64,000 nucleotides of DNA, taken from contig OZ024742.1 of assembly GCA_964016885.1 (NCBI GenBank), forward strand, positions 334,862,001 through 334,926,000. Direction: 5' to 3'. A program made the position numbers and the translations under genes. The stretch is from Eledone cirrhosa (Eukaryota). Position 1 is the stretch's first letter; every line of letters starts with the position of its first letter. The notes beneath the pieces were generated by a model, which was not told where the DNA came from, made no database searches, and worked only from the letters and a program-made list of their open reading frames with translations. Shown here one piece after another: positions 3,967-61,875 of this stretch.

Positions 3967-3998
3967 ACCTGAAGAAGGGCTTATGCCCGAAACGTCGT
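3967..3998 (+). ncRNA. Minimal type I hammerhead ribozyme motif (Penelope pLTR-like)
   Basis: ac-CTGAAGA-a-gggc(ttat)gccc-GAAAC-GTC-gt; AATAAA about 37 nt downstream, then (TA)n; stem I only 2 bp. Confidence 0.65.
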
Positions 3999-4179
3999 CC
4001 CCCACCTACCCCCCACTCTCCTGAGCGTGAATTTAATAAACATTTATTGTACTGCCTCTCTGTTCTGTCCCTGTTCAATTTTTCATTATATATATATATA
4101 TATATATATATATGTATGTGTGTGTGTGTCTGTGTGTGTGTGTGTGTAGCAAGTTTGCATATATATATATATAACAAAG

Positions 4180-4312
4180 AAAGTGTGGTAAGAAACCAGG
4201 TGGGCCATAACGCACCAGAGTACTCGATACTTAGGATAGTAGAATGAGTGATAGGATCTAGCTGTCGAAACGACCGGAGCTCAGCCGTCGAGGACCGGAC
4301 TCTTTTCCTATA
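4180..4312. mobile_element. Dispersed repeat of the GAAAC-hairpin-GTC family; inverted partner at 4820-4880
   Basis: ggatctagctgtcgaaacgaccggagctcagccgtc also occurs at 28600-28815 and 48400-48592; the other half matches 46300-46400. Confidence 0.7.
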
Positions 4313-4324
4313 TATATATATAAA

Positions 4325-4795
4325 AAGAAATACACAGATACATGCGAATACATACATATACATGCATATACACACATATATCCCTGAATTTGTGTGGTGC
4401 CAACCTTAACCGTTGTTGCTCTATGATTAATAGGGACAAAATAATATGAATAAATTAGATTGACTCAATATCAGAGCTATATAGTACATTATAAAGAAAG
4501 AAGAAACATTAGACATAAATAAAAATATATATATATACCCAATACTCTTCAACATCCTCGACTGCGCAGTTTCGTGGCTACTATGCAAAAACATTACATC
4601 ATAGAGATGCAGTATTTTTGTGAGGTTTGCCAACTTATCAAGAGAATACCTCATTAAAGTTTCAAAACACGTCCGCAAGGCGTGAGAGAGAATCCCGGTA
4701 AGGCGGAGGGAGAACTTAAGACGTGATACAGCGGTCAAAAAACAGAGTTAAGCCTCTTACAACCAAGAGAAAAATACCGACGTGTTTTGAAACTT
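4325..4795 (-). mobile_element. Diverged single copy of the 592-bp hammerhead-bearing family (see 53763-55836)
   Basis: Collinear similarity to the 592-bp unit (cacagatacatgcg ... ggtgccaac ... acttatcaagag ... aaggcggaggg ... taagcctctta). Confidence 0.8.
4555..4646 (-). ncRNA. Type I hammerhead ribozyme, U3-A8 variant core
   Basis: Minus strand ttctc-TTGATAA-gttggc...gccac-GAAAC-tgcgca-GTC-gagga; palindromic stem III ACTGCGCAGT. Confidence 0.8.
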
Positions 4796-57392: not shown

Positions 57393-59931
57393 ATAGATAG
57401 ATAGATAGATAGATAGAGAGAGAGAGAGAGAGAGAGAGGAGGAGGAAGAGAAAGGGAGAGAGAGAGAGAGAGAGAGAGAGAGAGAGAGAGAGAGAGAGAG
57501 AGAGAGATGGATAAATAGATAGATAGATGAATAGATTGATATCAGTGAAAAAAATAATTGAGCAGAAGGTTGCATGCAAGAAAAAAAAATGAGGCGCTAC
57601 GGGCCGTGTTCAGCCGCTGTGTCAAATGACCAGTTGTTTTGTTGTTTATACGTGACCGCCAAAGGTCTAACAAAAAACGGATAAAGTCTGACATGGGCGA
57701 AGTTGCTGTTCTTGCATTAAATGTTAATGGTAAGCGTTGTACCAGTAGCTGTGAACGAAGCTATTATGGTAGTTTACCAGTGCTGGCGAGAAAATGATGG
57801 CCCCCAGATGTATTGTCGAATGTGCTGTGGAGCCAGGAAAAAATGGCTGGTTGCTTTGTAAAGAACAAAAGGCAAGTTTAATCTGTAGGATGGGTTGCAG
57901 TGTAAATTCCATAATTCGGGCGAATCCACAGAAGTGGCCGAAATGCTAACAAGTCCAGTTCAATTTGTTGCTTTCCCAGCGAGTCGGGCAAAAACAACAA
58001 GACGGATGGCCGTCATGGACGATCAGTGTGCAACGAGATGCGAAGCTGTTTGAGTTCAGCGGCAATTAGTATTCCCGTGTTGCGGTGCCTGTATGAATCC
58101 AGTGGACTAAGCTCTGTGAGCTGCTAGCATGTGACAGCATCTCAACCAGGTGAAAAGGGACTCGCAGAATATTACGCTTGAAGAACATATACCAAGAACA
58201 TGTTGGTGTGTGATAAAAAAAATGTGTGCATATGCAGGCATGTAGGCATGTAAAACAGCAAAGAATGTGAATGAACAAAAACCATGAGCAAACAAATAGC
58301 AAAAGAGCACCAAACAAGTAAATGCATTCTACAAAGAAATATGTGAATGTAACAAACTGATAATTCAAAGTCAATCTAGGGGAGCAGAGAAATTGCTCAA
58401 TAAGGTCAAAGTTTTTCAAAGTCAAATAGTTCACACATCACTAGTGTACAGACACTAGTTCTATCTGAAAACTGAAAAAGAAGTTTGTTAATGCCGTTAG
58501 GGGTTAGATGTATGGTGTTTTTGTGAGATTTCGTGGCCATTTTTCCGTCCCGCCACACGGTTGTGTTGCTTCTTGTTAAAGCAAAGTCAAAGAATCTTCT
58601 GTAGAGTAGGAGTCACCAAATATGGCAGTCACGTCTGACGCCATAATGGTGAGAAAACTACTGTCTCAATTTCTCGCGTCCCTGTGGTAACGAGACAGAA
58701 GGTATGGTGGTTGCGTCGGTAAAGTTACAAGCCGTTTTGAAATTTCCGATGTGTGGTGGTTGGCGTCGGTAAGGTTATGAAGCTGCCACTCACTGTTCCC
58801 TGTATTGGTCAGTGGTTAAACAACGCTGTCGCTGCTGCTGTCATTGTTGTTATCCAGCGTAGCCATGACATGTCGGTAGCCATCTTGAAATTTTTTCGTG
58901 GCGAAAAAGTTTTTGAAATACTGCTAATTTTTCAAAAATCTTAAAAGGAATATTCTGGATTTTCGCAAGTTGCGACGTGGCAATAAAAGTTAAACTGAAT
59001 GAATAAGAAGGGCTGCGTGATATTCTTACGTCGGTCACCACTTTAGCAGTATTGGTTATAGATGTTATCGCCACATTAGCAGGGTGGTAGAATGAGTGGT
59101 CGTTAGTTGCCAGTGTGGTAAGTGATAGTATCCTCGTTGGATTATCTTGTTGACATAGACGTGAGGGAAGATCCCTCGATCTATTTACCATCTATTTACA
59201 ATATTCCTTTCGTCAGGTCGTCAATTCCAGCAGCATGGATTAAAGATGTCATTGAGACAAGAGTAAACATAATAACGACTTCAACCGCAGTAATTAGAGA
59301 TGAGATGTTTGTTTATTTATATGGTTGAAGTTACAGATAAAAAGAGGTTACATTAGGGAATGTGCCATTGCGCCGTTAAGCCGGCGAGGCTAGGGGTGCA
59401 ATATCTCACTGTTACATTATGCGTGTTGCTGGCTTGAAGTTTCCGGTACAAGAGCGAGATTTTTCAAATCTTCGCGGTGAATTTCTTCCTCAGGGCGCGT
59501 AGGGATACATCCTCTTCTACTGGCGCTGATTGGCTGAACTGAGCCAAATCACGCACAGAGAATGTATGTGAGCCCGCGGAATGTAGGTCACTACAGATAG
59601 ATATAGAGTATAAAAGAATTACTCTATAATAGAGATACTGCGAACGTAAGACAGGTTGGTAAGTTATAGGTGAGACGCTTTTGACAAGATCAGCTAGATA
59701 AGATGCGATATAATAGAAACCGTATTGAAACAATTGTAATATGAAAATAAAGTTTCTACGCAAGCTGCATATCCGACTTCAAATATTCTGGTGAGTAATG
59801 GTCTAACCAGTTTATAACTGAATCCATCCTGAGATGTCAACATGAATGGACCTGTTATTTTTTTATCTAAAGACATTTTTTTCCAATTCCAACCCGCCTG
59901 TCCCCTCAATCTATCTTATTTCTCATTCTTT

Positions 59932-59965
59932 CTTCTGAAGAAGGACTAGCGTCCGAAACGTCAAG
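59932..59965 (+). ncRNA. Minimal type I hammerhead ribozyme (Penelope pLTR-like)
   Basis: ctt-CTGAAGA-a-ggac(tagc)gtcc-GAAAC-GTC-aag. Confidence 0.78.
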
Positions 59966-61181
59966 CCCCTCTTCCTGCTATTTCAAACGTTAACCTTCCA
60001 TATACTGTACCGATGGTGTTGTTATTTCTGTTTCCCTTTTATAAACTTATATATATATATAATATATTGTTATACTTTGGGAGGGTCATGTTGCCAATAA
60101 GAAACACACGCACCAGTAGCTTTCACTCCAATTTATTATAAATTAAAACATTTTTTGTTTTATTTTTCGTAAAAAAAAAAAAAATTATAAATTTCCGGTT
60201 GGCTGGTTGCTTCCACAGCCGGACGGTTGTTCATATATATTGTCAAAGTTCTGTCGTCACACATTCTATAACCTCTTCAGTGACTGGGGATTCTTTTCTT
60301 TGTTTTGTGCCTCTCCTTTGTTCTGTCCTACGCCATCTTGTTTATTTGTGTGTGTTGTGTCATATATATATATATATATATATATGCATCAGCTGTGCTA
60401 GGGCGAGAAATAAAATTCTAATTTTATATATATATATATATATATATATATATATATATATATATATATATTATAGACATCTACTTTATTTCTCATAAAA
60501 TTTACAACTATCTATATACTATATGTCAAACTATTTATCAATTTATTTAGCAATCTCTCTCCCAAATGTTCGTTTGTCAAAACAAATAACAGTTTTCCCA
60601 TCATGCATCCGTGCTATTTGATTCTGTGCAAGGTGCAGTAGGTACACGTGAGAGATTTCAATGGCTATACAATAGTATCTTTTATAGATATTTCTTGTTG
60701 GTGCTCCACTTACTGGCTTATTTATTGCACAAATCTACGTCATATCAGTGTTCTATATACATTTCATACTTGTGCCGTCAGTTTTATGTGATTATATATA
60801 TATATATTATTATTATTATTATATATACATGTTTTTTTATGAATATATATATGTATATGTATGTTTATATATATGAATATGTATATGTATATATATATAT
60901 ATCTATATGTATGTTTATATATATGAATATGCATATATATATATATATATATATATATATATATATATATATATATATATATATATATATATATATATAT
61001 ATATATATATATATATATATATATATATATATTTAAATATAATATATATATATATATATATATATATATATATATATATATATATATATATATATATATA
61101 TATATATATATTTATATGTATATATATATATATATTTAAATATACATATATATATATATAAATATATATATATATAAAGAC

Positions 61182-61875
61182 TTAGTGTATCTACCAACAT
61201 ATATATATACAGATGTATACCCATGCAAGCAAATATATAGGTTTTGTCTTAGTAACTGTGTGGTTCAATGCAAGGGGATGCAGAACAATTATATGAAAAA
61301 CGTCAAATAAGAAAATTATTGTAATTAGCTTACTTACTTAAATTTCACTCCAACTAATTAGTTTCTGAAAGGCAATATACATGGAGAGCATGGAGAAAAC
61401 TTTTCGTCATCAGGGAGTCATTCTTAGCTAAGATACCTGGCAATGCGTGGACACAGGGAACTTAAAATAAAAAATATTCAGTGGATGGAAAAAAAGCAAG
61501 CGGGGACTAAATTCCAGGACACTGAAAAATTCACTGCCTTCTTGTTCGGTGGCAAATTCAAAAGAATCAATCACGTGACATCGAGGTTAATCAGTGAGGA
61601 GTGGGGTGTTAAAAAGACCGTAGCCAAGCTGTTACTATGAACTATAGTAGTAATTTTGGCAAATTTTTGCTCAACAAAATAATTTGGAGATAATTATAAA
61701 GAATTAGTATATCTACCAACATATATATACAGATGTATACCTATGCAAGCAAATATAGAGGTTTTGTCTTAGTAACTCTGTGGTTCAATGCAAGGGGATG
61801 CAGAACAATTATATGAAAAACGTAAAATAAAAGTAAGCTAATTACTATAATTTTCTTATTTTACGTTTTTCATAT
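61182..61875 (-). mobile_element. Retrozyme-like element: 522-bp unit plus partial second copy and short inverted end
   Basis: ttagt(g/a)tatctaccaacatatatatacagatg at 61182 and 61704; 61831-61875 is the reverse complement of about 61291-61335; (TA)n flanks. Confidence 0.85.
61347..61418 (-). ncRNA. Type I hammerhead ribozyme
   Basis: Minus strand actcc-CTGATGA-cgaaa...tttca-GAAAC-taatta-GTT-ggagt; palindromic ACTAATTAGT stem III; mismatch at the first pair of stem II. Confidence 0.78.

What the first reader, a model, noticed from the sequence alone, without database searches (positions are those of the whole stretch)
3967..61875. Many unrelated hammerhead-bearing, retrozyme-like elements occupying (TA)n microsatellites
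Seen: eleven distinct hammerhead folds in 64 kb (3967, 4555/54003 family, 20838, 24158, 24760, 26226, 26797, 27419, 50083, 59932, 61347). Six lie in non-coding monomers of 462, 483, 485, 522, 539 and 592 bp present as 1.1-2.9 head-to-tail copies flanked by TA runs. By eye the monomers share nothing except the ribozyme core. Established: type I hammerheads occur in Penelope-like element pseudo-LTRs and in metazoan non-LTR retrozymes, which are tandem monomers of a few hundred nt that yield circular RNAs. Inference: these are many independent, relatively large non-autonomous elements mobilised in trans, probably by a Penelope-like RT/endonuclease preferring (TA)n. I know of no description of this for a cephalopod-like genome but cannot search to confirm novelty.
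Basis: partly seen in the sequence, partly recalled or inferred. Interest (0 to 1): 0.92.

Follow-up and report, generated by a model that had tools for sequence, protein, structure and literature searches.

The report
Hammerhead retrozymes carrying Penelope-element hairpin signals
These are self-cleaving-RNA motifs in the ends of known Penelope-like transposons and in small non-coding parasites of them, and the parasites keep two small hairpins right beside the places where copying starts, which suggests how they get copied into TA repeats.

Summary
The hammerheads are real: 16 descriptor hits against 0.06 in shuffles; 10 of the 11 named folds hold, and 50083 is doubtful. They are a mixture. 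3967 and 59932 are truncated 3' ends of Neptune Penelope-like elements (PLEs), and 24158 is a Hydra-clade PLE end. The 483, 485, 522 and 592-nt units (probably also 462 and 539) are dispersed, non-coding tandem retrozymes. Both kinds are known. What I did not find described: each tandem family has two fixed 3' ends running into (TA)n (110 of 117 arm ends), and 39 of 39 head-to-head insertions pair one short with one long end. The monomers also share more than the ribozyme: a covarying 2-nt-bulged hairpin begins 4-10 nt after both ends. An intact, very young Hydra PLE in this genome has it in both positions, and so do published coral and sea-cucumber Hydra elements (read by eye). Most likely a Hydra RT/endonuclease dimer binds the two hairpins and primes one target strand at each. 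Binding, self-cleavage and circular RNA are untested. Random samples give roughly 2-3 x 10^5 hammerheads genome-wide.

The parts
3596..4086 (+). 5'-truncated 3' UTR of an autonomous Neptune PLE (family A, 4.7-kb unit); minimal hammerhead, core 3969, cleavage after 3996, 2-bp stem I; ends +90 into (TA)n
   Evidence: 1134 candidates, top 40 at 99%; RT and GIY-YIG upstream in L014/L021; full pLTR-ORF-pLTR copies
4318..4778 (-). diverged (74%) relative of the 592 retrozyme, 0.78 copy, long end; hammerhead core 4641 with U3-A8 pair, cleavage after 4560
20838..20884 (-). hammerhead (CCGA core variant, cleavage after 20842) of a dispersed family; unit type not resolved
   Evidence: relatives L165, L172
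23521..24326 (.). two-armed 3' end of a Hydra-clade PLE: minus arm long end (tail hairpin at 23679), plus arm short end; decayed hammerhead, core 24166
   Evidence: 3954 candidates, no short tandem spacing; Hydra endonuclease C-terminus upstream in L181/L182
24332..24858 (.). palindromic two-armed element: hammerheads 24525(-) and 24764(+), ends +148 and +50, tail hairpin at 24419; probably a Hydra-type 3' end, link to an ORF not shown
25488..26492 (.). 483-nt retrozyme: minus arm 25802-25488 (short end +80), plus arm 25803-26492 (long end +188); hammerheads 25641(-), 26231(+); hairpin 1 at 25905/26388, hairpin 2 at 26019
   Evidence: 1629 candidates, 99-100%
26557..27130 (-). about 462-nt monomer with an internal TA-rich tract and a terminal fold-back arm; hammerhead core 26833, cleavage after 26803; tandem at period 487 in L112; lacks the standard tail hairpin
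27142..28558 (+). 485-nt retrozyme, 2.92 copies, short end +93; hammerhead cores 27424, 27909, 28395; hairpin 1 at 27593/28078, hairpin 2 at 27213/27698/28183
   Evidence: 1833 candidates, 96-100%
49686..50660 (.). 539-nt tandem unit with an inverted arm and a SINE insertion (about 50384-50572); doubtful hammerhead near 50090; tail-hairpin-like fold at 49856/50598 (by eye)
53763..55837 (.). 592-nt retrozyme: minus arm 55198-53763 (2.42 copies, long end +245), plus arm 55196-55837 (1.09 copies, short end +80); U3-A8 hammerheads 54085(-), 54677(-), 55680(+); hairpin 1 at 55253(+), 55106/54513/53921(-); hairpin 2 at 55418(+), 54941/54348(-)
   Evidence: 1078 candidates, most full-length matches 98-99%
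59830..60045 (+). 5'-truncated 3' UTR of a second Neptune family; minimal hammerhead, core 59935, cleavage after 59962
   Evidence: 3479 candidates, about 90%; Neptune endonuclease upstream in 1 of 20 fetched loci, L071
61173..61876 (.). 522-nt retrozyme: minus arm 61830-61173 (long end +179), plus arm 61831-61876 (short end +62); hammerhead core 61413(-) with U17; hairpin 1 at 61805/61285, hairpin 2 at 61689
   Evidence: 3323 candidates, 89-96%
1387..1556 (+). isolated tail fragment of the 20838 family between TA runs, with the bulged hairpin at 1399
   Evidence: 79% to L165 over 168 nt

Best explanation
The window is a (TA)n-rich landing ground for Penelope-like elements (PLEs) and their non-coding parasites. 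SHOWN in sequence: some hammerheads are 3' ends of autonomous Neptune and Hydra PLEs. Others lie in dispersed 460-590-nt tandem units without an ORF (non-LTR retrozymes). Each unit ends at one of two fixed sites, 62-93 and 179-245 nt past the cleavage site, running into (TA)n. 5' ends are random and often joined head-to-head to an inverted arm. A bulged hairpin (YUC, inner stem, 2-nt bulge UN, GAR) starts 4-10 nt after each site, as in the autonomous Hydra element. INFERRED: a Hydra RT/GIY-YIG dimer binds the two hairpins, nicks both strands of a TA repeat, and primes one strand just upstream of each hairpin. The two cDNAs are extended independently and joined by 0-6 nt of microhomology, giving one short-ended and one long-ended arm. 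The template is a hammerhead-processed circle read round repeatedly (about even odds) or an uncleaved multimer.
For: 110 of 117 arm 3' ends in 71 loci fall at the two sites (L047 and L157 are the same array). 39 of 39 complete two-armed insertions are short plus long, with evenly spread 5' offsets. The hairpin follows 10 of 10 ends in 592, 485, 483, 522 and Hydra L183, at a chance rate of 0.03-0.07 per 25-nt window, and both ends of three diverged relatives. Hairpin 1 was first seen in the retrozymes and then found in Hydra; hairpin 2 the other way round. It is present in 11 of 23 testable hammerhead clusters (0.22 expected) with compensatory changes: CUC/GAG vs UUC/GAA, inner U-A vs C-G. By eye, it is also in coral Hydra-2_Amil, sea-cucumber Hydra-1_Ajap (twice, before the ATG) and Hydra-2_Ajap. 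Hydra is abundant and young here: 41,187 candidates, about 110 of 150 scored identical over 161 aa, many 738-aa open frames. Arrays are homogeneous: L140 has 13 identical copies over both arms sharing 6 private changes. A Poseidon PLE protein cuts and extends both strands, starts at two internal RNA sites that bound the tail, and is predicted dimeric (PMC11167929).
Against: There is no experiment and no expression data. The monomers show no BLASTN homology to any autonomous element I had, so the Hydra link rests on motifs. Neptune family C9 also has two ends (+76/+142) and targets (TA)n with only a variant fold. Three junctions fuse retrozyme-type sequence to Neptune sequence without a TA run (L083, L138, L021). 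One short/short pair occurs in a duplicated Neptune locus (L165). The hairpin is missing in 12 of 23 clusters, including the 462 class, the 311-nt tandem family and the long end of decayed Hydra L035. Published Hydra-1_Crog and Hydra-1_Obim show only imperfect versions, and Hydra-1_Amil has no tail to test. Hairpin 2 has a 1-bp inner stem in 483 and 485. Several single-strand MFE folds do not show hairpin 1 (592, C10, C11, C22). Four two-armed loci were left out of the 39 (L093 cut off; L096, L136, L146 with one arm ending elsewhere), and the loci are best matches, not a random draw.
Confidence: 0.75

Rival explanations
1. The arrays are satellites: a truncated pLTR inserted once and expanded locally by unequal crossover (the route favoured in 10.64898/2026.07.22.740005), with no RNA-level multimer.
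For: Some arrays have variants shared by a subset of copies (L142, L145, L150, L153), and the 16.75-copy 522 array L143 is rearranged.
Against: Both inverted arms are multi-copy with non-integer lengths and fixed TA-joined 3' ends. L140 has no singleton among 13 copies. The families are 96-100% identical across many chromosomes.
Confidence: 0.08
2. Mobilised as proposed, but by Neptune proteins, or by any TA-targeting PLE. The hairpins are a relic of Hydra ancestry or serve transcription or processing rather than RT binding.
For: Active Neptune families (9692 and 4962 candidates, 775-aa intact frames) share the two-end rule and the target. Three retrozyme-Neptune fusions were seen.
Against: The hairpin sits at a fixed 4-10 nt from both ends in unrelated families and covaries. 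It is absent from both Neptune leaders tested. The retrozyme hammerheads resemble Hydra ones in long stem III, a mismatch at the base of stem II and frequent U17 (PMC8557442 File S2).
Confidence: 0.15
3. The template is a linear, largely uncleaved read-through multimer and the hammerheads are weak or dispensable, so these work as tandem non-autonomous PLEs (like MRC1 of Chlamys) rather than as circular RNAs. This is compatible with the hairpin model and differs only in the template.
For: Unprocessed RNA was the main substrate in vitro (PMC11167929). Only 1 of 9 Xenopus dimers cleaved (10.64898/2026.07.22.740005). 522 has U17 and a stem II mismatch.
Against: Arms of up to 8-11 copies would need as many uncleaved ribozymes, and truncation alone would shrink arrays. 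Circular monomer folds are stable (z -3.3 to -6.3 for three of four, -1.5 for 522). Cores covary (U3-A8).
Confidence: 0.45
4. All eleven are ordinary truncated pLTRs of autonomous PLEs.
For: True for 3967, 59932 and 24158; likely for 24760 and 20838.
Against: The four tandem families repeat head-to-tail at 483-592 nt with no PLE protein homology. Of 71 loci, 70 show no contiguity with a PLE ORF, and the exception is a rearranged fusion.
Confidence: 0.02

Closest known systems
Metazoan non-LTR retrozymes (Cervera & de la Pena 2020, PMC7229834; Li et al. 2026, 10.64898/2026.07.22.740005)
   Same: Non-coding tandem units, one type I hammerhead each, GC under 50% (35-42%), coexisting with PLEs.
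   Different: Larger than the 150-450 bp of the 2020 paper, though within the 51-972 bp of the 2026 paper. Here PLE-type insertion scars (inverted arms, two fixed ends, TA target) and RNA signals shared with one PLE clade are shown, without sequence homology to a pLTR. The estimated load is about 86 hammerheads per Mb, against 126,247 in the 28-Gb axolotl genome and about 5000 in mussel.
Hydra clade of C-terminal EN+ PLEs (Craig et al. 2021, PMC8557442; includes Hydra-1_Obim)
   Same: RWK-like, DKT, CxCX5C, CxxC and CxH motifs, no CCHH; (TA)n target; hammerhead in the 3' UTR; tail and inverted 5'-truncated copy.
   Different: The unit here is 4.0 kb with tens of thousands of candidate RT pieces. 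Tails are 90-165 nt rather than 30-40. The paired bulged hairpins are visible in that paper's consensus file, but its main text has 0 hits for hairpin, stem-loop or bulge.
Poseidon PAc in vitro mechanism (Frangieh et al. 2024, PMC11167929)
   Same: Two internal RT start sites bounding the tail; both target strands cut and extended; first start about 85-92 nt after the hammerhead site; binding motif inferred downstream.
   Different: Different clade. It describes an AC-rich stem loop and priming without homology and reports no strand-specific choice of start site. Here the ends mostly sit at AT/TATA microhomology and the two arms use different sites.
Neptune PLE pLTR minimal hammerheads (Cervera & de la Pena 2014, PMC4209133)
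   Same: 3967 and 59932: ACGU stem III, extra A after A9, short stem I; the U3-A8 core variant is also described there.
   Different: Nothing material; these two are ordinary.
Non-autonomous Chlamys elements such as MRC1 (PMC8557442)
   Same: Non-autonomous, multicopy head-to-tail PLE insertions in microsatellites.
   Different: Green algae; they resemble their autonomous partner at the 3' end, and most Chlamys lack hammerheads.

Membership tests
Type I hammerhead ribozyme | Conserved core (CUGANGA, GAAA, UH) with stems I-III and a 3-8 base pair | tested here: met
   8 of 11 named folds pass, 2 more by family; U3-A8 covariation in the 592 family
Type I hammerhead ribozyme | Match to an Rfam hammerhead model | tested here: not met
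   long loop II and minimal variants may fall outside the models (inference)
Type I hammerhead ribozyme | Self-cleavage as monomer or dimer | not testable with these tools
   needs in vitro transcription
Type I hammerhead ribozyme (50083 only) | Stem I closing the core | tested here: not met
   G.G at the first pair here and in L134; relatives are also degenerate
Non-LTR retrozyme (483, 485, 522, 592) | Head-to-tail units each with a type I hammerhead | tested here: met
Non-LTR retrozyme (483, 485, 522, 592) | Non-coding and not attached to a PLE ORF | tested here: met
   longest ATG frame 21-99 aa, no tblastn hit to the PLE proteins in hand; 70 of 71 loci not contiguous with an ORF
Non-LTR retrozyme (483, 485, 522, 592) | Dispersed, recently mobile copies | tested here: met
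   1078-3323 candidates per family, 89-100% identity, many chromosomes
Non-LTR retrozyme (483, 485, 522, 592) | Expressed as linear and circular monomer RNA | not testable with these tools
   no RNA run was available for the one family tried
Non-LTR retrozyme (483, 485, 522, 592) | Sequence homology to a PLE pLTR (Li et al. 2026) | tested here: inconclusive
   none to the three Neptune and four Hydra stretches compared; many PLE families were not sampled
Hydra-clade PLE (L183; 24158 family) | RWK and DKT motifs, CxCX5C linker, CxxC and CxH, no CCHH, C-terminal GIY-YIG | tested here: met
   L183 ORF read against section 11 of PMC8557442; 24158 only by its endonuclease C-terminus
Hydra-clade PLE (L183; 24158 family) | Placement in the Hydra clade on an RT tree | not tested
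   similarity to Hydra-1_Obim judged by eye only; Pfam gives no hit
Neptune PLE (3967, 59932) | DKG motif, CX2-5CxxC linker, GIY-YIG with CCHH, pLTR-ORF-pLTR | tested here: met
   3967 family fully; 59932 only by one endonuclease-bearing locus
PLE-type insertion | 5' truncation, inverted 5'-truncated copy, tail at one end, microsatellite target | tested here: met

The most novel reading that the evidence does not exclude
A pair of small bulged hairpins, conserved across mollusc-like, coral and sea-cucumber Hydra PLEs, is the RNA signal that places each half of a dimeric RT/endonuclease on its start site. That would explain the PLE tail and the strict short-plus-long arm pairing. Unrelated non-coding hammerhead circles exploit this signal and are copied by two RTs running round one circle, in a genome holding on the order of 10^5 such ribozymes.
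Probability: 0.4. Interest if true: 0.8.

Novelty: new variant of a known kind. Interest (0 to 1): 0.62.

Why it matters
How PLEs, the closest mobile relatives of telomerase, recognise their RNA and make their tail and inverted ends is open, and so is which enzyme moves animal retrozymes. This genome offers a very young, intact 738-aa Hydra protein, several unrelated non-coding clients, and a short covarying motif with exact predicted start sites. That makes both questions testable with one in vitro assay. A portable cis-signal for insertion into (TA)n would also interest people building retrotransposon tools. The hammerhead load suggests that repeat annotations of such genomes miss a large class; the octopus repeat paper I checked has 0 hits for 'ribozyme' (PMC13282606).

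Tried and rejected
Rfam: only microsatellite noise or nothing. Expression: no RNA holder listed for the 485 monomer; four runs of unknown kind laid as contigs cover the monomer and join end to start, which tandem DNA also gives, so they are uninformative. L1-type twin priming and short-loop fold-back: rejected for the four tandem families because the 5' offsets between arms are spread evenly; fold-back may apply to the 24760 family, whose arms share a fixed centre in 11 listed loci. An apparent fixed 5' start at query position 543 was an artefact of the query boundary. The 2.8-kb period near three 24760-family copies is a segmental tandem of mixed repeats, not an element. An RWK-containing frame at window 13623(-) is not a PLE. 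No parent PLE found for any monomer. Earlier scan findings: none. No 3D or complex prediction was run; the question is RNA-protein.

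
Full report
SETTING. The window is G000:C3:334862001-334926000 in a 3.0-Gb genome. It is rich in microsatellites, with 4542 bp in (TA)6+ runs. I did not determine the species.

OBSERVATION. A type I hammerhead descriptor with palindromic stem III, tuned on this window, gives 16 hits against 0.06-0.07 in local dinucleotide shuffles. 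Eight of the eleven named folds pass. 3967 and 24158 fail on a 2-bp stem I but belong to conserved families; 50083 is doubtful. The 592 family has the U3-A8 swap of the core pair, a variant known from PLEs (PMC4209133, passages). All six periods are confirmed. Rfam recognises none.

DENSITY. On stretches taken at round-number positions, not used for tuning, the descriptor found 11 hits in 190 kb and 12 in 77 kb, against 0.15 each in shuffles. That is 23 in 267 kb, about 86 per Mb, or roughly 2.6 x 10^5 in the genome (my arithmetic; Poisson range 55-129 per Mb, wider in truth because hits cluster into about 18 insertions). By my reading about 11 of the 23 belong to short tandem families. The window is about three times the average. 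269 hits in the loci held fell into 32 sequence clusters.

WHAT THE ELEVEN ARE. (a) Neptune 3' ends: 3967 continues upstream into an RT and GIY-YIG ORF, and full 4.7-kb pLTR-ORF-pLTR copies exist. 59932 has a Neptune endonuclease upstream in 1 of 20 loci fetched. (b) Hydra-clade 3' end: the 24158 family runs back to a Hydra-type endonuclease C-terminus in 2 of 3 loci fetched. (c) Probably ends of longer elements: 24760 and 20838. (d) Tandem non-coding units: 483, 485, 522 and 592, with 1078-3323 candidates each, plus 462 and 539 with less evidence. They have no PLE protein homology, and 70 of 71 loci are not contiguous with a PLE ORF. These meet the sequence definition of non-LTR retrozymes.

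INSERTION ANATOMY. Counted from the cleavage site, arms end at +80/+245 (592), +93/+197 (485), +80/+188 (483) and +62/+179 (522) and run into (TA)n. Of 117 arm ends, 52 are short, 58 long and 7 elsewhere. In 39 of 39 complete head-to-head insertions one arm is short-ended and the other long-ended. The short arm is the longer in 9 of the 39, 5' offsets are evenly spread, and most junctions overlap by 0-6 nt. I left out four two-armed loci with a cut or disrupted arm, and the loci are best matches or long arrays that I chose. Autonomous elements show the same pairing (Hydra L033, Neptune L161), with one short/short exception in duplicated Neptune locus L165. Copies differ by 0.6-1.0 substitutions within an arm, 0.2-1.2 between arms of one insertion, and 3.0-5.7 between loci (three young families). 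L140 has 13 identical full copies across both arms with 6 private changes, which points to one template. Some arrays also show local duplication.

THE SHARED SIGNAL. The monomers are unrelated by BLASTN. Yet a hairpin, YUC paired with GAR around an inner stem and a 2-nt bulge beginning with U, starts just after the short end in 11 of 23 testable clusters (0.22 expected), with changes on both sides of pairs. I then found it in an intact Hydra-clade element (L183: 4011-bp unit, 738 aa) at +58, with a second copy at about +150, just after the long end (+142) and before the ATG. That second copy predicted one after the long end of each retrozyme, and it is there. In all, 10 of 10 ends carry the motif at 4-10 nt, with a chance rate of 0.03-0.07 per window. 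It is absent from both Neptune leaders tested. In the Hydra consensus file of PMC8557442, read by eye, it is exact in coral Hydra-2_Amil, in sea-cucumber Hydra-1_Ajap (twice) and in Hydra-2_Ajap; imperfect in Hydra-1_Crog and Hydra-1_Obim; and untestable in Hydra-1_Amil.

MECHANISM. Established for a Poseidon element: both strands are cut and extended, RT starts at two internal sites bounding the tail, the protein is a predicted dimer, and hammerhead cleavage is not needed in vitro (PMC11167929). Inferred here: each hairpin seats one protomer of the Hydra protein, each protomer primes one strand of the TA target just upstream of its hairpin, and the two cDNAs are joined at microhomology. I put PLE-type target-primed mobilisation at about 0.9, a role of the hairpins in Hydra-specific priming at about 0.65, and a circular template at about 0.5. 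Against a Hydra-only reading: Neptune C9 has two ends without the exact motif, and three retrozyme-Neptune fusions exist.

LITERATURE SEEN. Craig et al.: passages of the preprint and of PMC8557442, section 11, and supplement parts 2, 52, 53 and search hits. PMC7229834: passages only, supplement unreadable and possibly listing cephalopods. PMC11167929: parts 1-2 of 4, figures and supplements not seen. PMC4209133: passages. PMC13282606: part 1 of 3 and a term search. Eight searches showed no paper on cephalopod retrozymes, on the short-plus-long rule or on this hairpin pair. The library lacks most subscription journals.

VERDICT. Real and largely of known kinds: non-LTR retrozymes among Neptune and Hydra PLE ends. 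The new part is the paired hairpin signal and the strict arm pairing, which tie sequence-unrelated retrozymes to the Hydra clade and give precise, testable predictions. New variant of a known kind; interest 0.62.

Noticed in passing
L083 (G000:C1:105962500-105967500), L138, L021: Retrozyme-type sequence joined directly to Neptune 3' UTR or ORF sequence with no TA run between; possible template switches or co-insertions. Window 59829 also joins a Neptune 3' UTR to another repeat.
   Followed up: partly
window 4171-4310, 4826-4881, 28600-28827, 46300-46400, 48399-48589: A further TA-flanked family of short imperfect palindromes, frequent in fetched loci, with no hammerhead found; possibly ends of another PLE-type element.
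   Followed up: no
window 24970-25470 and 46148-46265: Another TA-flanked family with inverted arms and no detected hammerhead.
   Followed up: no
L171 6165-6787, L164 5175-5795: A 311-nt tandem hammerhead family that lacks the standard hairpin; by eye it has a similar stem with a 3-nt bulge.
   Followed up: partly
window 24335-24858; L017, L077, L081, L169: Some families form near-perfect palindromes with a fixed centre in many loci, unlike the random junctions of the four tandem families; may reflect fold-back at a template hairpin.
   Followed up: partly
L160-L167: AT-rich Neptune family with many intact 775-aa frames, an upstream frame, and a U3-A8 hammerhead; very young.
   Followed up: partly
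window 30255-39487 (minus strand, frame 34006-30977): Two diverged copies of a LINE; one has a 1010-aa frame with AP endonuclease and RT.
   Followed up: partly
window 48621-49515: Decayed mariner-like DNA transposon with about 100-bp terminal inverted repeats in a TA run (family label recalled, not tested).
   Followed up: no
window 7474-7662, 15134-15243, 17421-17739, 23034-23240, 41314-41492, 46792-46974, 48048-48170, 50384-50580: A high-copy SINE-like repeat of about 190 bp; copies interrupt the 539 unit and the 48046 element.
   Followed up: no
window 51038-51237: 200-N assembly gap.
   Followed up: no
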